The notes: a model not told the origin generated them from the sequence alone. Shown: positions 27,006 to 48,397, numbered from the stretch's first letter. The stretch: 64,000 nt of DNA from a virus (IMGVR_UViG_3300005201_000042:1-64000); one strand, 5' to 3'. Program-made: numbers and translations.

Positions 27006-27296
27006 ATGGCGGAACAAGCTTTATCGGCAATTAACCAAACTTTGGATACTTGGTTTCTAAGTTACACTAAGAAATTGTTTGCGTACTATGGAGAAGGGAC
27101 TTATGGGCATTCTGCAGAGACCAACGCTTGGCAAATATCTATTCCAGATAATAATTTGAAAGTGAGTATTGGCTGGTCTGCTGAGCAAGGGGATTATGTT
27201 TACATAGTAATCAAAGATGGTTCTAGAAAGGATGGAAGGGTTCAGAGTTTAAAGGATCTGAAACTTTTATTTCCAGATGTTTTTGGGGGGTCTTAA
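27006..27296 (+). CDS. hypothetical protein (probably leaderless)
   Basis: ATG 4 nt after the -10, no SD; C-terminus resembles the tail modules of 27277-28404 and 43514-47125. Confidence 0.55.
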   Translation: MAEQALSAINQTLDTWFLSYTKKLFAYYGEGTYGHSAETNAWQISIPDNNLKVSIGWSAEQGDYVYIVIKDGSRKDGRVQSLKDLKLLFPDVFGGS

Positions 27297-28404
27297 ATTG
27301 ATTAATGAACAGCACTTGAGAAAAGAGATCCATAAATTTACGTCTTCTGTACTTTCTCAAATGTCCGAAGAGCAATTAAATAAACTTAGTAGAGACCTTC
27401 AAGAAGATTCTGATATGCTTACGTCTTCTACTCAGTTTGTAGATGATTCTGCTAGTAACAATGGCGTTCCTTCTTATTTCATAACAAGTAGTGGGCGTAT
27501 AGTAGACGATTCATACGAAGGCGGTTTATGGGTTTCTCCTCAAGGCAAGGCTTATGAGGTTACAGGGGATCATTCGGAATATATTTTAGAGTATCCCTCT
27601 TTATTTGGAATAGACGTTTCTGGTTTTGAATCAGACGATACCTTTGGCTTAGATGATTCTGATAGAGATGTTTTATATGAACAAGCTTATTCCAAAGGCT
27701 GGGCTAGGGTTCGCATTGTTGACGGAGATATATTTGTAGATGTCATCCGTTCAATTAATACAGATAGGTTTCTTTCAAAGGTAGTTCAGTGTATTCTTGA
27801 TTATGGCGTTCCTTATGACTCAGCTATTCATGTTGAAGTGTTAGAGGACTCTGGTCAATATTCTAATTCAAACGAGTCTTTATCTTCTCTGCTCACAAGT
27901 CGTTACTCTGCCAAGGCTGGTCTTTTTAATGTCCAGGCGAAATGGATACAGGGTTTGCTTACGAGGGAAGAAGCTATAGCGGAGTTGGTAAAGACGGGCA
28001 AGTCCAGGGAAATAGCTAATAAGATACTGGACTCTTGGGGTACGAGGTTTTCGAGTTATACACCCTTGCATTCTGGCACGGGTATTGCTAATCTTATAAT
28101 TAGCTCACCAGACAAAGATTATGAAGTAGCTAAAAGTGGTACACGTTACTGGTTAGACGGGGTTTGTAAGCGTATACAATCTAATCTTGGGAAGAAGGGT
28201 ATTAAGGCTACGATAAGTCCAATAACGAACTTAACCTGGAGGGTTGTCGTGGGTCAGAAGGTTGTCTTTCAAGTTATTTACTCATCCTCTAATAATGTGG
28301 ACTTCTTTGATTATACTTATTTTAATGCCTCTGGGAAATCCTTTTCAGGTCAGGTAAGACGTATGGAAGATTTAAAGGGTTTAATTTCTAAGGTAGGGGT
28401 TTGA
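27277..28404 (+). CDS. modular protein: WISP domain, GYS-like module, promoter-linked tail module
   Basis: LTSS, ITSS, LTSR, IISS separators; true start may be TTG 27298. Confidence 0.6.
   Translation: MFLGGLKLINEQHLRKEIHKFTSSVLSQMSEEQLNKLSRDLQEDSDMLTSSTQFVDDSASNNGVPSYFITSSGRIVDDSYEGGLWVSPQGKAYEVTGDHSEYILEYPSLFGIDVSGFESDDTFGLDDSDRDVLYEQAYSKGWARVRIVDGDIFVDVIRSINTDRFLSKVVQCILDYGVPYDSAIHVEVLEDSGQYSNSNESLSSLLTSRYSAKAGLFNVQAKWIQGLLTREEAIAELVKTGKSREIANKILDSWGTRFSSYTPLHSGTGIANLIISSPDKDYEVAKSGTRYWLDGVCKRIQSNLGKKGIKATISPITNLTWRVVVGQKVVFQVIYSSSNNVDFFDYTYFNASGKSFSGQVRRMEDLKGLISKVGV
28056..28094 (+). promoter_or_regulatory. early promoter embedded in CDS
   Basis: TTATACACCC-TTGCAT-N17-TAATCT with extended TG. 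Confidence 0.7.
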
Positions 28405-28405
28405 T

Positions 28406-28636
28406 ATGCATGACGATGTTGATGAACAGATTCTTGGAGTTTTAAAAAATCTTTCTCCCGAGGCTCTTGCTTGTCGTGTAAAAGAAGTCAATTACTTACG
28501 AAAAAAGTACCCTGATTTCTTTCCTAGTTCTCAGGTCTCTTCTGGTGTAAAAATTTTAAATGAAGACAGGGTTGCTCTTGACCAGGCTTTTGCAAAATTA
28601 GACCAAGAAGGCTTTAAAAGGTTGGCAAATGAATAA
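28406..28636 (+). CDS. hypothetical protein, paralog of 47127-47459
   Basis: LKNLSPEA...YPDFFPSS vs IKSLSPES...YPNMFSSS. Confidence 0.6.
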   Translation: MHDDVDEQILGVLKNLSPEALACRVKEVNYLRKKYPDFFPSSQVSSGVKILNEDRVALDQAFAKLDQEGFKRLANE

Positions 28637-28999
28637 AGAAGAATTTTTAACTGCTTATCGTACCTTAGTTAAAAGAGCATTTAATTTTTCGGAGATTGGT
28701 CGGTGTGAGGGTCTATTGGCTTTAGAGTCCCTTGTTGACAAAGATAAGGTTGATAAAAGGGATATTTTGAATATGGTGTTCAGCTTGTAATTGATGGTAC
28801 GGAGCCTGCTTTTTTGGATAAGATTTTGTCTAATTTAATATCCTTAGAAGAAAATGCCTATTTAACACATTTTAAAACTATTCAAAAAGAGGCTGTGTTG
28901 ACTCTTCAGAGTAATGCAAATACTCGCCTTCTGATGCTTTTACTAAACTCCTATTCTGATCTTCCATTAAGTGACCCTATCTTCGGTTTGCAAGAATAG
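28629..28999 (+). pseudogene. MotA cytoplasmic-domain-like gene with 1-bp deletion
   Basis: MNKEEFLTAY...GRCEGLLALE; GATATTTTGAA lacks one T relative to paralog RDVFEYG; homology resumes in the other frame (EYGVQLVIDGTEP). Confidence 0.75.
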
Positions 29000-43302: not shown

Positions 43303-43470
43303 ATGAAAAGTAAGTACTCTGTTGAGAAGAGAACCGCTGACGAACGCTTTACTCTTACAATTCCAGGTTTGGACTATGCTGTTGGGGATGTTTACTTTGT
43401 TTTAAAAGAGCATGAGCAAGTTGTCGCTTGGGCACATACAGAGGATGGTGCTTGGGCTTGTAGACTCTAA
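43303..43470 (+). CDS. hypothetical protein (55 aa, not in ORF track)
   Basis: ORF ends just before the terminator. Confidence 0.45.
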   Translation: MKSKYSVEKRTADERFTLTIPGLDYAVGDVYFVLKEHEQVVAWAHTEDGAWACRL

Positions 43471-43476
43471 CTTAAC

Positions 43477-43508
43477 GCCATCCTTCGGGATGGCTTTCGT
43501 TTTATATA
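43477..43508 (+). terminator. terminator fused to late promoter, copy 1
   Basis: GCCATCC-TTCG-GGATGGC-TTT then TTTATATA (43501-43508). Confidence 0.85.
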
Positions 43509-43513
43509 CTAAT

Positions 43514-46500
43514 ATGAATAATTTTGTCTCTGTGTCTTCAAAGCCTTTAGTTATACGAATATCATCCTCTGCTAATCCAGGCTATATTTCAAAAGCTGTA
43601 ACTACTGTTAAGAGGTTTCTAGACAACGTTGGTGCTTGGTATAAGTATCACAGAAGCAATAAATCGAATAGTGAGTATTTTCTGGTTGAACGTCCGAATG
43701 ACAGGATGTCTCCGGAGGTTGACGTTCGTGTTTCAGATCACAATCTCCCACACGTATATGATCAACCAGACCTAGATATTGACCCCAGTTCTCCAGGTCG
43801 TATTGGTTCTTACTCTGTTCCAGAGGCTCTAGACTTGCTTGAGGGCTTCTTTGACGGGGAATACGTAAATATAGTTGAGGGTGAGCCTATTGTGTCTTCT
43901 AAAACTTATACACCCTTGTATTATGGCAATCGCAAGGGTATTATAAAGAGTAGTAGACGGGAGGCAACGCTTGAACGGTTTAACAAGATTGAGCAAACTC
44001 AACCAGATGTATGGCGTATATTACATACAAAGGCATCCGATCCTAGTATGCAGGGTTATAATACCCTTTTGGGTGTGGGTTCTTGGGACTATCACCAAGA
44101 TTCAACTTTAGCTGGTTTGATTAGGGATTCTTGGAAAAAAGGTTATACTACTTTCTTCTTGGAAGACAACGAGGTTGTTCATGGTTTTTTAGCTTTTATG
44201 GTTAGTGGTGATACAATTTATAATGTTAAGACTTTTTCAGTGGTTAGGGACGTTAAAAACGGAGAGGATTTAAAGAGGTTTGTGAGGGATTACGTGCCAA
44301 ACTATAATTTAGTTTGGGAGGCACGTGAGGACAACAAAGCATGTAAGCGTTACGAGGATATAACGAGGTTGTATGGTGGTACTGTTACACCGAGTACAGA
44401 AAATCCTAACCATCTCATTTTTAAGATTAGAAAGGGGTCTGTGCCGAATTCCACACGGGTTTCTTTACATTCTCATAGCAGGTTGGAGCAAAGCTATAAA
44501 AATAGGTTTTCCTCATCCTCACCCACGGTTTGCAGTGAGTTCGGAGCTTCTTTTAAGCAGTTTTCACTGGAGAATAGTTCTTCTGCAATCAAGAATAGAC
44601 GATTTACAAGAAACATTAAAATCTTAAGTACTTTTAACGAACAAGCCTATTCAGATTGGTTTTTAGAAGAATCCTCTAGGTTTCTTGGTAAATCTGAGGA
44701 TGAAGTTCTTTCTCTCCCAAATTACAAAGATAAGCTAGACACTTTTTTGGATGAGGCACGTGAATGGCATTCTATGTCTCAAGAGGAAAGGGAAAGGTGG
44801 TATTTGTCAGGTGCTGGTAGAACTATTTGTACGTCTTCTGTTGTGCGTTTTTTATGGGCGGATAAGTCTTATCCATCCTTGTATTCTAAACTTTCTCAAG
44901 GTAATATTAACAAGTCTATGGGTCGTAAGTTTATTTTTAATTCCAAAGAGATGCTCTCAGGCGGTGTTTGGATAAGCCCTTCTGGAGATATGTTTGGTGT
45001 TCCTTTGACTCATATAAAAGCTGTAATAGAAGACCCTGCTAAGTTTGGTTTATCTGTTGAACAGTTAAAGGCTATTTACAATAAGCATAACGAGGGTATT
45101 GGATCAGAGGGGGACGCAAGAGACGAGGTTATTTCTTTGCTCATTTTTAATGGCTGGGTAAGAATTAGGTTTTACCCAGGCGAGTATTTTCATGTAGAGT
45201 TAAATAAATTAAGTCAAAAATATAAAAATGTTTTATTCTCTTGGGCTTCTAAAGTGATCAGTAAGTCTCCAGAGAAGAAAGCTCTTTCTGTCATTATTTG
45301 CGAGAGACTAGGAAATTTTGAATATTCTTTTAAATTAGAAGATTTGCAGGTTTCTTTTGTTTCTTCTGGTAAAACTGGAGATTTAGCTTATTGGATAAGT
45401 CCTTCGGGAGAGCTTATAAGTACGCATGGTAGTCATACAAGTACAGTAGTGGAAACTCCTGAGGTTTTTGGTTTTACAGAGGAAGAAGTTAATACTTTAT
45501 TTTCGGTCGGTGAGGAGGAAGCTGTTCTTAAGTGTTTAATAGGTAACGGTTGGATAAGGCTTCGTTATCAGGCTGGTTGTTATTTTGTCTCTGTGTTGTC
45601 TTTGTCTCCAGAGACCCAGCAAAGGTTGCAGAACTGGGCTTTGCATGAGGGGAACGAAGATAAGGATACTACAGTTATTATTGAGATGTTGGTTTCATTT
45701 AACGTTATAAAGGTTACTTTACGAGATGTTTCTAGAGGTGTTTTTTCACATGATGCTTCCCTGCCTATCCATTCATCGGTTGATTATGATGAGTGGAGTC
45801 TTATTCCTAGTAGTCTTAGAACAATAGGAAACGCACAACTAATCGAGTCTGCTACTATTCAAGACCTATTAGACGAGAACGATAAGAACCCAGAGTTTAC
45901 TCACAGGGCAGAGCATTTAGACGCTACGAAGGCTCAGGGTGATTCAGAAATTACTCGCTGTTACGCTTCCACAGTCGAGTTAAGAACCAAGTCTGAGCAT
46001 TTTAAGGAGAATAATACCTATTATCGGCAATGGGTACTTTTTAAGGATTTTGTTTCAATAGCACGGGACAAGAAGATCAAACTTGAGGACGCTGTGGATT
46101 ATGCTATTAACTTTTGTGATATAACTATTAGATGTTCCTGCCCTGATTTTTTGTATAGAGGGTACTCTTACATGGGTGATCAGCTTGGTTATCTTTATGG
46201 TCTCCCAAGAGAGAAGCGGTTTCCTAAAAGAAATAACCCCAATCTTAAGCTTGCGGTTTGTAAGCACTCGGATATAGCATTAGAACATCTCCTTAAAAAT
46301 AAAGAGAAACTTATAAAAATGTTTGGTGTATATTACAAGAGGATAAAAGAGACTCCACCTGACACTATGATTGCTGTCCCTGCTAAAGCCGCAGAGGAAA
46401 AGAAAGAGGAGTCTATTGAGGACTTCTTAGCTGGTTTTGACGAGGATGGAAATAAAATATCAGAAGAAAAAGCAGACCTTAAAGAAGATGACGGTGTTGA

Positions 46501-47125
46501 GACTATTTCAGAACAAGACCCTGACTCTGGTGTTATTAAAATAGACACAAAACTTGCCGAGGGTAATTTACCGCCAGACCAGCAGGTTAAGTACGCAGGC
46601 GATGAAGATAAACCTGTGGACGAAAACACTCTAGAAAATGTGGCTGATTCTATTTCCGATGAGGAAGAAGAGGAATTAGCCACTCAGATTGACGAAGCTT
46701 CTCTTTCTGGTTCTCCTAGGAATGATAATGAGAAGTTCATGCACGAGTGGTCTTTCCAGCGGTTTAAACCTAATACTTATACAGACTTGTATCCTAATAA
46801 TTATCATGCTAGTCTTATAACAAGTTCACCAGACAAAGATTATGAACCTGCTAAGTCTTATGTAAGAAACTGGTTGGACAGTATTTGTAAGAGTGTTCAA
46901 GCGAACCTAAAAAAGAAGGGTGTTGTTTCTACAATAAGTCCTGTAACAGGTTTGACTTGGAAAGTAGCAGTAGGTCAGAAGGATGTTCTTAAAATAGACC
47001 TTTCCTTCCCTTCTGGTAATTACTGCTTTAGTTATACATATTTAGATAGAACAAGTAAATCATTTTCAGGAAAGACTATGAAAATGGATGCTTTAATACA
47101 GCTTGTTCCAAAGGTTGGGGTTTGA
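43514..47125 (+). CDS. large modular virion protein: RVSDH domain, GNAT-like domain, two WISP domains, SWIM Zn finger, acidic region, tail module
   Basis: start moved from 43412 because a terminator and late motif lie upstream; CSCPDF...CKH SWIM; EDNKACKRYE GNAT-like. Confidence 0.65.
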   Translation: MNNFVSVSSKPLVIRISSSANPGYISKAVTTVKRFLDNVGAWYKYHRSNKSNSEYFLVERPNDRMSPEVDVRVSDHNLPHVYDQPDLDIDPSSPGRIGSYSVPEALDLLEGFFDGEYVNIVEGEPIVSSKTYTPLYYGNRKGIIKSSRREATLERFNKIEQTQPDVWRILHTKASDPSMQGYNTLLGVGSWDYHQDSTLAGLIRDSWKKGYTTFFLEDNEVVHGFLAFMVSGDTIYNVKTFSVVRDVKNGEDLKRFVRDYVPNYNLVWEAREDNKACKRYEDITRLYGGTVTPSTENPNHLIFKIRKGSVPNSTRVSLHSHSRLEQSYKNRFSSSSPTVCSEFGASFKQFSLENSSSAIKNRRFTRNIKILSTFNEQAYSDWFLEESSRFLGKSEDEVLSLPNYKDKLDTFLDEAREWHSMSQEERERWYLSGAGRTICTSSVVRFLWADKSYPSLYSKLSQGNINKSMGRKFIFNSKEMLSGGVWISPSGDMFGVPLTHIKAVIEDPAKFGLSVEQLKAIYNKHNEGIGSEGDARDEVISLLIFNGWVRIRFYPGEYFHVELNKLSQKYKNVLFSWASKVISKSPEKKALSVIICERLGNFEYSFKLEDLQVSFVSSGKTGDLAYWISPSGELISTHGSHTSTVVETPEVFGFTEEEVNTLFSVGEEEAVLKCLIGNGWIRLRYQAGCYFVSVLSLSPETQQRLQNWALHEGNEDKDTTVIIEMLVSFNVIKVTLRDVSRGVFSHDASLPIHSSVDYDEWSLIPSSLRTIGNAQLIESATIQDLLDENDKNPEFTHRAEHLDATKAQGDSEITRCYASTVELRTKSEHFKENNTYYRQWVLFKDFVSIARDKKIKLEDAVDYAINFCDITIRCSCPDFLYRGYSYMGDQLGYLYGLPREKRFPKRNNPNLKLAVCKHSDIALEHLLKNKEKLIKMFGVYYKRIKETPPDTMIAVPAKAAEEKKEESIEDFLAGFDEDGNKISEEKADLKEDDGVETISEQDPDSGVIKIDTKLAEGNLPPDQQVKYAGDEDKPVDENTLENVADSISDEEEEELATQIDEASLSGSPRNDNEKFMHEWSFQRFKPNTYTDLYPNNYHASLITSSPDKDYEPAKSYVRNWLDSICKSVQANLKKKGVVSTISPVTGLTWKVAVGQKDVLKIDLSFPSGNYCFSYTYLDRTSKSFSGKTMKMDALIQLVPKVGV
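43906..43944 (+). promoter_or_regulatory. early promoter embedded in CDS
   Basis: TTATACACCC-TTGTAT-N17-TATTAT. Confidence 0.65.
46777..46815 (+). promoter_or_regulatory. early promoter embedded in CDS
   Basis: TTATACAGAC-TTGTAT-N17-TAGTCT with extended TG. Confidence 0.65.
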
Positions 47126-47126
47126 T

Positions 47127-47459
47127 ATGCCTAAGTTTAAAGATGAGACTGACAGGCTTTTGTTTGAGGGTATAAAAAGTCTCTCTCCTGAGTCTTTTGT
47201 TAGGCTTAAGGGTGAGATTGAGCAAGCAAGAGCTTCTTATCCAAATATGTTTTCTAGTTCTCTTGTTACTAGCTCAGTTAATGGAAAGCAAAGAAGGAAA
47301 TCTGGAAAACCAACAGAAGATGAAGAAATTAGATCTGATAATTCTCACTTGGTTGTTCGGGGTCTAAATAAAGAGGAAAGAATCGCTTTGTTGTTAAAAG
47401 CTCATCCTTCTTATTCTTATGAGGCTATTTCTTCTCTCGTAGATGGCAATTATGAATAA
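47127..47459 (+). CDS. hypothetical protein, paralog of 28406-28636 with extension
   Basis: LSPES...YPNMFSSS. Confidence 0.6.
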   Translation: MPKFKDETDRLLFEGIKSLSPESFVRLKGEIEQARASYPNMFSSSLVTSSVNGKQRRKSGKPTEDEEIRSDNSHLVVRGLNKEERIALLLKAHPSYSYEAISSLVDGNYE

Positions 47460-47826
47460 TAAAGAAGAATTTTTAACGGCTTATCGTGCTGTTGTTGAAC
47501 GAGCTTTAAAGCTTTCTGAAGTGGCTCGGCGTGAGGGTTTATTAGCTTTAGAAGAATCTATTGACGTGGACAAAGCTAGGAATCGAGATGTTTTCGAATA
47601 TGGGCTTCAGTTTGTTGTCGATGGTACAGAGCCAGCAATACTAAATAAGATATTATCCAATATAATTGAGCAAGAAGAGAACGTTTATAAATCGCATTTA
47701 ATGGTCATTCAAAAAGAGGCTGTTTTGGCTATCCAAGAAGGAATGACTGTTAGACTTCTTGCTTGTCTTTTAAACTCCTATTCTGATCTTCCATTAAGTG
47801 ACCCTATCTTCGGTTTGCAAGATTAA
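47443..47826 (+). CDS. soluble MotA cytoplasmic-domain-like protein
   Basis: ARREGLLALEE and YGLQFVVDGTEP match the MotA loop; no transmembrane helices. Confidence 0.75.
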   Translation: MAIMNNKEEFLTAYRAVVERALKLSEVARREGLLALEESIDVDKARNRDVFEYGLQFVVDGTEPAILNKILSNIIEQEENVYKSHLMVIQKEAVLAIQEGMTVRLLACLLNSYSDLPLSDPIFGLQD

Positions 47827-47835
47827 ATTAAATAG

Positions 47836-47905: not shown

Positions 47906-48337
47906 ATGAAAAAGGAATTTAATTTTAGGTCAGATGGTTTGGAGATTAACGGGAAATTTTATAAAGGTCAGTGGTTAAGTGACCGTTGGCATAACGGAGA
48001 AGTTACTTCCACACTCCCTGCACCACCTGTAGAGTTCCATGTTCCTCAGAAATCGAACTTTCCAAAGAATACAGGGCTGGATTTTGTTCTTGGTACCCGT
48101 CCGAATAGAGTAGGAATTATTTTTGATGTGGTAGTTTTTGATACTAACCATGAATTTTACAATAAGGCTTTAAAATCTTGGGTTGCTTATGTAACCAACG
48201 ATTTAACTGAAACTGCGTCTAACTTTAAAGATTTGCTTACAAAAGATGATTACCCTGAGTATGCAAAGAAGTATGTATCTGATCTTCTTGATAATAACCT
48301 GAGAAATCAAGCTATTTTGAAAAGTTTGGTGGCTTAA
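47906..48337 (+). CDS. hypothetical protein
   Basis: start moved to the ATG downstream of the promoter. Confidence 0.55.
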   Translation: MKKEFNFRSDGLEINGKFYKGQWLSDRWHNGEVTSTLPAPPVEFHVPQKSNFPKNTGLDFVLGTRPNRVGIIFDVVVFDTNHEFYNKALKSWVAYVTNDLTETASNFKDLLTKDDYPEYAKKYVSDLLDNNLRNQAILKSLVA

Positions 48338-48364
48338 TTTTAATTAAATCTTGCCTAACTTAAC

Positions 48365-48397
48365 GCCATCCTTCGGGATGGCTTTTTGTTTTATATA
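48365..48397 (+). terminator. terminator fused to late promoter, copy 2
   Basis: GCCATCC-TTCG-GGATGGC-TTTTT then TTTATATA (48390-48397). Confidence 0.85.

What the first reader, a model, noticed from the sequence alone, without database searches (positions are those of the whole stretch)
47443..47826. Phage-encoded soluble mimic of the flagellar stator MotA cytoplasmic domain
Seen: ARREGLLALEE...YGLQFVVDGTEP with no TM helices, downstream of an early promoter, with a second copy at 28629. Established: this loop carries the conserved Arg and Glu (E. coli MotA R90/E98 equivalents) that contact the FliG torque helix. Inference: it is an early-expressed rotor-binding decoy that brakes or retunes host motility or saves proton-motive force. 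From recollection, similar free domains are abundant in termite-gut treponemes, which hints at a spirochaete host (unverified).
Basis: partly seen in the sequence, partly recalled or inferred. Interest (0 to 1): 0.8.

Follow-up and report, generated by a model that had tools for sequence, protein, structure and literature searches.

The report
Phage copy of membrane-free MotA domain
A phage gene encodes only the rotor-facing, cytoplasmic part of the flagellar stator protein MotA, without membrane helices; bacterial relatives in termite-gut spirochaetes usually sit beside or fused to a soluble copy of MotA's rotor partner FliG, but the phage carries MotA's half alone, so it may act on a host FliG domain.

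Summary
ORF 47443-47826 (more likely start 47452) encodes a 124-127 aa soluble protein. It is the MotA TM2-TM3 loop joined directly to the MotA C-terminal tail, with the TM3-TM4 hairpin and TM1-TM2 gone. Support: PDB MotA E 2e-8; AlphaFold pLDDT 94; structural Z 15.8 to MotA in the MotAB-FliG complex 8UCS. The rotor-contact residues are kept and match real Treponema MotA. The second copy at 28629 is real but has a 1-nt deletion.

The termite-gut Treponema recollection is confirmed: at least 248 relatives, and 27 of 201 sampled genomes of that family against 2 of 301 across the phylum.

The two viral records carrying it have no FliG_C gene.

A host FliG_C-type domain is therefore the likely target, either the rotor FliG (brake or decoy) or the host's soluble FliG_C proteins. 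Binding, timing, motility effect and host are untested; the complex predictor was unavailable.

The scan had already noted this family on other DNA. I found no paper on it.

The parts
47443..47826 (+). Copy A: soluble MotA cytoplasmic-domain protein, 127 aa, or 124 aa from the more likely start ATG 47452. Contact residues are R29, R30 and E37.
47127..47459 (+). Orphan upstream ORF, 110 aa from ATG 47127 (TTG 47103 is possible). It overlaps the MotA-domain gene by 8 nt if that gene starts at 47452. Copy B has a paralogue.
   Evidence: only itself in 1.8e9 representatives. No FliG_C signal.
46776..46793 (+). Promoter-like motif CTTATACAGACTTGTATC inside the large ORF. It marks the 5' edge of the duplicated cassette.
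46794..47125 (+). C-terminal segment of about 110 aa of the large ORF. It is shared with the 375-aa ORF of copy B and is the first part of the duplicated cassette.
43514..47125 (+). Large ORF of about 1203 aa (listed from 43412; probable start ATG 43514, after the terminator). It has repeated modules and a SWIM-like Cys/His region. Function unknown.
47912..48337 (+). Downstream 141-aa ORF of unknown function, preceded by another copy of the motif at 47835. It is the last gene before the terminator.
43467..43497 (+). 31-nt element with a GC hairpin terminator. It is identical to the one at 48355 and bounds the island on the left.
48355..48385 (+). Identical 31-nt terminator element that bounds the island on the right.
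28629..28999 (+). Copy B of the MotA-domain gene, split into two frames by a 1-nt deletion near 28769-28771. dN/dS against copy A is 0.26.
28406..28636 (+). Copy B of the upstream orphan ORF, 76 aa. It overlaps the MotA-domain gene by 8 nt.
28056..28071 (+). Copy B of the promoter-like motif, at the 5' edge of the duplicated cassette inside ORF 27277-28404.

Best explanation
Shown: the gene encodes a compact, all-helical soluble protein that reproduces the whole cytoplasmic domain of a flagellar stator MotA subunit. The TM2-TM3 loop is joined directly to the post-TM4 tail. The charged ridge that touches the FliG torque helix is intact.

Shown: it belongs to a family that is expanded in termite-gut Treponema. 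The bacterial members are mostly encoded right after, or fused to, a soluble FliG C-terminal domain.

Inferred: the family works by binding FliG_C-type domains through the stator-rotor interface. The phage carries the MotA half without any FliG_C half, so its product should bind a host FliG_C domain.

My leading guess is the rotor protein FliG in the C-ring. The phage protein would compete there with MotA5MotB2 stator units and lower or stop torque: a brake or decoy for the host's periplasmic flagella.
For: Identity:
- Sequence.
- The family HMM matches real Treponema MotA twice in colinear order. HMM positions 11-92 match MotA 75-156, and positions 73-117 match MotA 208-255. The alignment with E. 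coli MotA agrees.
- AF2 pLDDT 94.3. The ESM Atlas model has pTM 0.92.
- Z 15.8 to 8ucs_C, which is MotA in the solved MotAB-FliG_C complex.

Interface:
- In 8UCS the critical pairs are MotA R89/R93 with FliG E292, and MotA E100 with FliG R285 (bioRxiv 10.64898/2026.09.09.750262).
- By the alignment, phage R30 corresponds to R93 and E37 to E100.
- The six interface positions E26, R29, R30, E31, E37 and E38 are identical to those of real T. primitia MotA.

Link to FliG_C:
- About 14 of about 23 assessable bacterial loci have FliG_C adjacent (often a 4-nt overlap) or fused.
- The partner's C-domain matches FliG_C at Z 17.6, and 8ucs_H at Z 15.1 with 52% identity.
- The partner keeps R126 and E133/D134, the counterparts of FliG R285 and E292.

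Phage copies are partner-less: no FliG_C was found in G000 or in the second viral record G500.

Selection: dN/dS is 0.26 between the two phage copies, at dS about 1.
Against: - No binding, expression or motility test was possible.
- The natural MotA-FliG contact is transient and is made by a pentamer. A monomeric domain may bind the rotor too weakly to compete (established knowledge of the motor; inference).
- The host may hold abundant soluble FliG_C proteins that would be at least as good a target.
- C. sporogenes MotA R89 is E26 here, although real Treponema MotA also has E at that position.
- One of the two phage copies is frameshifted.
- The gene lies among morphogenesis genes, with portal upstream and tape measure downstream. 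It is tied to an orphan ORF and to the tail of a large ORF of unknown role.
- The host is unproven.
Confidence: 0.4

Rival explanations
1. The target is not the rotor but the host's own soluble FliG_C proteins or FliG_C/MotA-domain fusion proteins. Bacterial cells hold cognate soluble pairs of unknown role, perhaps motor regulation or some other accessory function. The phage's partner-less MotA domain would then titrate or disrupt that system as a competitive mimic.
For: - Soluble FliG_C partners are encoded next to most bacterial homologues and keep the contact residues.
- Single genomes carry up to 9 copies.
- Cassettes lie at variable loci beside BrnT/BrnA, transposase remnants, a type II REase fragment and an integrase element, as accessory or mobile genes do.
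- Fusions occur with TPR, LRR and DnaB_C/KaiC-like ATPase domains.
Against: - There are no PADLOC hits for either partner.
- The function of the cellular pairs is itself unknown.
- Fusions to FliM and FliN domains point back to the C-ring.
- Nothing shows that the phage's host carries such a cassette.
Confidence: 0.25
2. The domain is reused as a general helical interaction module unrelated to flagella. It would work with the co-duplicated orphan protein and the C-terminal segment of the large neighbouring ORFs, for example in virion assembly or as ejected cargo.
For: - The duplicated unit is motif + C-terminal segment of a large ORF + orphan ORF + MotA domain, kept in the same order twice. 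The orphan ORF overlaps the MotA-domain gene in both copies.
- The unit lies inside the morphogenesis region.
- Some bacterial relatives are solo or fused to non-flagellar repeats.
Against: - The rotor-contact residues are invariant and identical to real MotA. Such strict conservation is not expected if the FliG-facing surface were irrelevant.
- The other viral record carries the domain without these neighbours.
- The orphan ORF has no relatives at all.
Confidence: 0.2
3. It is a passenger gene recently picked up from a host and has no role for the phage.
For: - Copy B carries a frameshift.
- Only two viral records in IMG/VR, and none of 50,697 phage records, carry the family.
Against: - dN/dS is 0.26 over a divergence of dS about 1 since the duplication, so both copies were long under purifying selection.
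- The copy A frame is intact, with a confidently folded model.
- Two apparently unrelated viral records each carry the domain. I found no portal or large-terminase match between them, and the two genes fall in different tree groups.
Confidence: 0.05

Closest known systems
MotA / PomA, A subunit of the flagellar stator (PDB 8UCS, 6YSF, 6YSL, 6YKM, 8BRD, 9LU9); its cytoplasmic 'torque-generating interface', TGI4 type (PMC12505986)
   Same: - The fold of the whole cytoplasmic domain matches (Z 8.6-15.8).
- Structural alignments show 20-31% identity.
- The charged residues equivalent to E. coli R90/E98 and to C. sporogenes R93/E100 are kept.
   Different: - All four TM helices are missing, so there is no ion channel.
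- There is no MotB in the record.
- The Pfam MotA_ExbB match is below cut-off.
- The protein is about 125 aa rather than about 260 aa.
- It is probably not held in a membrane pentamer.
Unnamed family of about 125-aa 'hypothetical protein' / JGI 'flagellar motor component MotA' in termite-gut Treponema and Spirochaetales (e.g. LBL45_00955, Pg6C_05460), usually in a FliG_C + MotA-domain cassette
   Same: - 50-62% identity over the full length.
- The same loop-plus-tail architecture and the same invariant residues.
- The phage copies nest inside this family (quick tree).
   Different: - The phage gene has no FliG_C neighbour or fusion, and none exists anywhere in the record.
- An unrelated orphan ORF overlaps it upstream.
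Soluble flagellar brakes and clutches: YcgR and MotI/DgrA (PilZ proteins) and EpsE (from my own knowledge); FlgX, a PilZ-family tetramer that binds the stator cytoplasmic region (PMC11725899, PMC6686046)
   Same: These are small cytoplasmic proteins that act at the stator-rotor interface. That is the proposed mode of action here.
   Different: - There is no sequence or fold relation, and no PilZ or glycosyltransferase domain.
- Those proteins bind the interface as foreign ligands, whereas this one is a copy of one side of it.
- No phage-encoded example turned up in my literature searches.
ZorA of the Zorya anti-phage system (a MotA homologue; PMC11946911)
   Same: It is a MotA-derived protein outside the flagellum, in a phage-bacterium conflict setting.
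   Different: - ZorA is a membrane pentamer with ZorB and a long cytoplasmic tail.
- The phage protein has no TM region.
- PADLOC finds no hit.

Membership tests
MotA/PomA flagellar stator A subunit | Four transmembrane helices that form the ion channel with MotB (Pfam MotA_ExbB, PF01618) | tested here: not met
   The maximum KD19 is 1.35, so no TM segment. There is no Pfam hit; PF01618 scores 11.4 bits against a cut-off of 22.9. The alignment shows the TM3-TM4 hairpin deleted.
MotA/PomA flagellar stator A subunit | Cytoplasmic torque-generating domain fold (TM2-TM3 loop plus C-terminal tail) | tested here: met
   Z 15.8, rmsd 3.0, 115 aa aligned to 8ucs_C residues 68-259. The ten top hits are all MotA/PomA. 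The HMM matches the loop and the tail in colinear order.
MotA/PomA flagellar stator A subunit | Conserved charged residues that contact the FliG torque helix (E. coli R90 and E98) | tested here: met
   R29 aligns with R90 and E37 with E98. Both are invariant in 36 relatives. The interface positions are identical to real T. primitia MotA.
MotA/PomA flagellar stator A subunit | A partner motB gene | tested here: not met
   No MotB_plug match anywhere in the 86-kb record. The neighbouring ORFs have no family hits.
Soluble MotA-domain family of termite-gut Treponema (unnamed) | About 125 aa; MotA loop joined to MotA tail; the motifs ARREGLLALE, RDIFEYG..F..DG and KEAVL.IQ.G | tested here: met
   E-values of 1e-39 to 1e-29 and 50-62% identity to at least 120 members. 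All invariant columns are present.
Soluble MotA-domain family of termite-gut Treponema (unnamed) | A FliG_C-domain gene adjacent or fused (seen at most loci, not all) | tested here: not met
   The upstream ORF is not FliG_C. The FliG_C profile finds nothing in the whole record. About 14 of 23 assessable bacterial loci do have it.
PilZ-type or EpsE-type flagellar brakes | A PilZ or glycosyltransferase domain | tested here: not met
   No Pfam or NCBIfam hit other than the MotA models. The resemblance is only in the proposed mode of action.
Known anti-phage defence or Zorya components | A match to a PADLOC model | tested here: not met
   No PADLOC hit for the phage protein, for its neighbours or for the bacterial partner proteins.

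The most novel reading that the evidence does not exclude
Phages of termite-gut spirochaetes carry a stripped-down copy of the stator's rotor-binding face. It would occupy the FliG torque helix and stall the host's periplasmic flagellar motors. The bacterial FliG_C + MotA-domain cassettes would then be a self-neutralising soluble stator-rotor pair, a natural brake-and-release (or addiction-like) module for motility. This would be a new class of motor regulator built from the motor's own interface.
Probability: 0.25. Interest if true: 0.85.

Novelty: new variant of a known kind. Interest (0 to 1): 0.65.

Why it matters
The stator-rotor contact (MotA R90/E98 with the FliG torque helix) is where flagellar torque is made. 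Structures of it have been solved only recently.

This is a naturally soluble, confidently folding copy of the MotA side. In bacteria it is genetically coupled to a soluble copy of the FliG side. Together they would offer:
- a ready-made minimal system for studying that interface in solution;
- a possible new kind of motility regulator in spirochaetes, whose control of two polar motor sets is still unclear;
- in the phage, a possible new way for a virus to interfere with host motility or with a host system built from motor parts.

I found no paper describing the family. The scan's own earlier notes show it recurring in several genomes.

Tried and rejected
- Complex prediction (phage protein with FliG_C-only partner): the machine was busy, then the tool was declared unavailable. 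Nothing was folded.
- Idea that the upstream orphan ORF is a degenerate FliG_C: rejected. BLASTP gives E 0.08 to 5.7. There is no Pfam hit and the forced alignment is unconvincing. The ORF has no relatives in 1.8e9 representatives.
- INPHARED phages: tblastn with the phage protein found nothing. Megablast of 12 kb found nothing. A real Treponema MotA query found only full-length MotA/PomA-like genes.
- IMG/VR: two scans with different patterns found only one other record, G500/L009. That record shares no portal or large-terminase match with this phage.
- Host search: the portal was not found in 201 Treponemataceae genomes. A search with 20 kb of phage DNA found only the MotA-domain gene itself and short matches without CRISPR repeats.
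- PADLOC: no hits.
- Covariation of interface charges across 14 natural pairs: no informative changes.
- ESM Atlas structure search: nothing above TM 0.5.
- Promoter scan: sigma-70-like sites are not above chance.

Full report
**1. What is there**

ORF 47443-47826 on the + strand is open and encodes 127 aa. A second in-frame ATG at 47452 corresponds to the start of the paralogue at 28629 and to the 'MN.(D/E)EF' start of nearly all relatives. I therefore take 124 aa from 47452 as the likely product. It then overlaps the stop of the upstream ORF by 8 nt, exactly as in the second copy.

The protein has no hydrophobic segment. The highest 19-residue Kyte-Doolittle mean is 1.35, against more than 2.0 for real Treponema MotA.

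**2. Is it MotA-like beyond chance?**

Yes.
- Pfam gives nothing.
- Five NCBIfam stator models (MotA, PomA, MotP) match at E 4e-10 to 2e-7.
- Solved MotA chains match at E 2e-8 (8ucs_C, 6ysf_E), with a weak second stretch on the MotA C-terminus.
- A profile of 36 relatives hits real Treponema MotA (260-263 aa) twice in colinear order. Profile positions 11-92 match MotA 75-156 (the TM2-TM3 loop). Positions 73-117 match MotA 208-255 (the tail after TM4).
- An alignment with E. coli and Treponema MotA shows TM1-TM2 absent and the TM3-TM4 hairpin cleanly excised.

So this is not just 'the loop'. It is the whole cytoplasmic domain of MotA, rebuilt as one soluble chain.

AlphaFold2 with that alignment gives a seven-helix bundle at pLDDT 94.3 and pTM 0.89. 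The ESM Atlas holds an independent model at pTM 0.92. Foldseek's ten best PDB hits are all MotA/PomA (TM by query 0.62-0.72). VIA-align gives Z 15.8, rmsd 3.0 over 115 residues, model 3-122 onto 8ucs_C 68-259. The first unrelated fold is at Z 4.2.

**3. The rotor-facing residues**

E. coli MotA R90 and E98 pair with FliG D288/D289 and R281 (PMC12505986). In my alignment the phage R29 aligns with R90 and E37 with E98. Both are invariant in the family.

In the solved C. sporogenes MotAB-FliG_C complex (8UCS), the critical pairs are MotA R89/R93 with FliG E292, and MotA E100 with FliG R285 (bioRxiv 10.64898/2026.09.09.750262). By the HMMER alignment these are phage E26, R30 and E37. R89 is not kept, but real T. 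primitia MotA also has Glu there.

All six positions examined (E26, R29, R30, E31, E37, E38) are identical between the phage protein and real T. primitia MotA.

**4. The second copy and the cassette**

The copy at 28629-28999 is real, but it lacks one base near 28769-28771 relative to copy A and so falls into two frames.
- Read through with X at the break, it is the sister of copy A in a quick tree (support 88).
- dN/dS between the copies is 0.26 at dS about 1. Both were long under purifying selection, so the break is either recent or an assembly error.
- The last 60 nt or so of the two genes are identical.

The duplicated unit is larger than the gene. DNA similarity begins exactly at a motif, at 46776 in copy A and 28056 in copy B. 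It then runs through the C-terminal 110 aa or so of a large ORF, a small orphan ORF (47127-47459 and 28406-28636; 37% identity over 46 aa) and the MotA-domain gene.

The motif CTTATACANNCTTGTWAT occurs 10 times, all on the + strand, against 0.17 expected. It is a plausible phage promoter.

The copy A island is bounded by two identical 31-nt hairpin terminators (43467-43497 and 48355-48385), each followed by TTTATATA and an ATG.

**5. The record**

The window is part of an 86-kb IMG/VR virus record, classed linear with CheckV completeness of 60%.
- All large ORFs are on one strand.
- Portal and tape-measure matches flank the island at 35 kb and 54 kb.
- There are no tRNAs.
- There is no relative among 50,697 phage records.

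**6. Relatives**

The protein search returned 248 hits of about 125 aa at 50-62% identity, and JGI auto-names many of them 'flagellar motor component MotA'. The named ones are Treponema or Treponemataceae MAGs.

The species-genome scan found 14 loci:
- termite-gut Treponema, Spirochaetales and Spirochaetaceae MAGs;
- T. primitia ZAS-10;
- three loci in 'Candidatus Fibrimonas'/Fibrimonadaceae MAGs.

With the family profile at E <= 1e-16, 27 of 201 sampled genomes of T. primitia's family have it, with up to 9 matches in one genome. Across the phylum sample only 2 of 301 do. Real MotA scores only about 1e-12, so the two are easy to tell apart.

**7. The new fact: a FliG_C partner**

On a 167-kb Treponema-type contig the gene follows a 171-aa gene whose C-terminal half is a Pfam FliG_C domain (E 1e-26). 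The same arrangement is seen in a Treponema MAG and in many other loci, often with a 4-nt overlap.

Among about 23 assessable loci from the sampled genomes, about 14 have FliG_C adjacent or in the same polypeptide.

Fusions are varied:
- MotA-domain + FliG_C, 250-313 aa;
- two or three MotA domains + FliG_M/FliG_C, 530-950 aa;
- combinations with TPR, LRR, FliM, FliN (FliMN_C) or DnaB_C/KaiC-like ATPase domains.

In T. primitia ZAS-10, three of the four loci that carry the domain are next to or fused with a FliG_C domain; for the fourth, in a 1029-aa ORF, I found no FliG_C match.

The AF2 model of the 171-aa partner (pLDDT 84.9) has a small beta-beta-alpha-beta N-domain and a C-domain. The C-domain matches FliG_C at Z 17.6 (rmsd 1.1), and the FliG_C chain of 8UCS at Z 15.1 with 52% identity. 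Its torque helix keeps R126 and E133/D134, the counterparts of FliG R285 and E292, as does real FliG2.

Both sides of the solved salt-bridge pairs are thus conserved in a soluble, genetically linked pair. Gene fusion plus conserved adjacency is the classical sign that two domains work together. This is an inference; no binding was shown.

**8. The phage copies are different**

Neither this record nor the only other IMG/VR record with the family contains any FliG_C. That other record is G500, a provirus fragment carrying a 115-aa gene at L009 5977-6324.

I found no portal or large-terminase match between the two records. Their genes also fall in different parts of the quick tree, which suggests two separate captures.

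Other partner-less members:
- one on an integrase-bearing element;
- one after a truncated type II REase gene;
- a few at chromosomal sites.

The phage's upstream orphan ORF is not a FliG_C. It has no Pfam hit, BLASTP E-values to FliG_C-only proteins are 0.08 to 5.7, and it has no relative among 1.8 billion representatives.

**9. Mechanism**

Shown:
- It is a stable soluble copy of the stator's cytoplasmic domain with an intact rotor-contact surface.
- The family is coupled to FliG_C.
- There is no FliG_C in the phage.
- The phage gene has been under purifying selection.

Inferred: the product binds a host FliG_C-type domain through the stator-rotor interface.

It sits on rotor FliG and competes with stator units, braking the host's periplasmic flagella.

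The main rival (0.25) is that it targets the host's soluble FliG_C proteins or fusion proteins, whose own function is unknown. Those cassettes sit at variable loci next to toxin-antitoxin genes and mobile-element remnants, but they have no PADLOC hit.

A third reading (0.2) gives the domain a non-flagellar role, with its co-duplicated neighbours, in the morphogenesis region.

A pure passenger gene is unlikely (0.05).

One common motive does not fit. Excluding flagellum-dependent phages makes little sense here, because spirochaete flagella are periplasmic (established knowledge).

**10. What I could not do**

- The complex predictor was unavailable.
- The host could not be tied to Treponema by prophage or spacer evidence. 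It rests only on the gene's own phylogenetic neighbours.

**11. Novelty**

Six literature searches found no description of TM-less MotA-domain proteins, of their FliG_C pairing or of a phage-encoded one. A recent survey of MotA structural diversity describes the torque-generating interface but not soluble forms.

The scan's own earlier notes report the same family on other DNA. These include a spirochaete pair, a sulfate-reducer fusion and what appears to be the G500 gene. I reached the pairing independently before reading them.

I class it as a new variant of a known kind. The phage instance is distinguished by lacking the partner.

Noticed in passing
window 5824, 14481, 15911, 25296, 28056, 31893, 42826, 43905, 44868, 46776, 47835 (+ strand): The motif CTTATACANNCTTGTWAT occurs 10 times within 2 mismatches (0.17 expected), and a further variant lies at 28056. 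All copies are on the + strand. Several sit in short intergenic gaps and several sit inside large ORFs. It is a likely phage promoter or other regulatory site.
   Followed up: partly
window 43467-43497 and 48355-48385: Two identical 31-nt hairpin terminator elements, each followed by TTTATATA and an ATG, bracket a 4.9-kb island. The first lies inside the ORF as listed from 43412, so the real start is probably ATG 43514.
   Followed up: partly
window 43514-47125 and 27277-28404: The large ORFs upstream of both cassettes share a C-terminal segment of about 110 aa. They also share a repeated module (W[IV]SP.G ... GW[IA]R[IV]R), which occurs twice in the 1203-aa protein and once in the 375-aa protein. 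The larger one also has a SWIM-like Cys/His stretch that hits phrog_4315 and phrog_1722. There are no Pfam families.
   Followed up: no
P0121, P0137, P0140, P0133, P0138 (metagenome proteins): Large soluble proteins combine the MotA domain with TPR repeats plus FliM or FliN (FliMN_C) domains, with LRR repeats, or with a DnaB_C/KaiC-like ATPase. This looks like a whole toolkit of C-ring and stator parts in non-membrane proteins of termite-gut bacteria.
   Followed up: partly
L017 1228-2007, L020 3268-4209, L018 201-575: MotA-domain + FliG_C fusions and a solo gene occur in 'Candidatus Fibrimonas termitidis'/Fibrimonadaceae MAGs (Fibrobacterota), outside the spirochaetes. This is either lateral transfer within the termite gut or a binning error.
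   Followed up: no
L042 385-1484: A 167-aa family member overlaps the end of a truncated type II restriction endonuclease gene (PADLOC REase_II, E 3e-62, 199 of 315 positions).
   Followed up: no
contig of P0037/P0060 (21.5 kb): One contig carries FliG_C, MotA-domain, a 208-aa ORF, MotA-domain and FliG_C in a row. It also has a third FliG_C gene and a FliM+FliN gene, among many small unknown ORFs.
   Followed up: no
L004 9471-9986 and relatives (model m3dc06f0a9e56): The FliG_C-only partner proteins carry a conserved N-terminal beta-beta-alpha-beta domain of about 70 aa with no Pfam family. It has only weak RRM-like structural matches (Z 3.7).
   Followed up: partly
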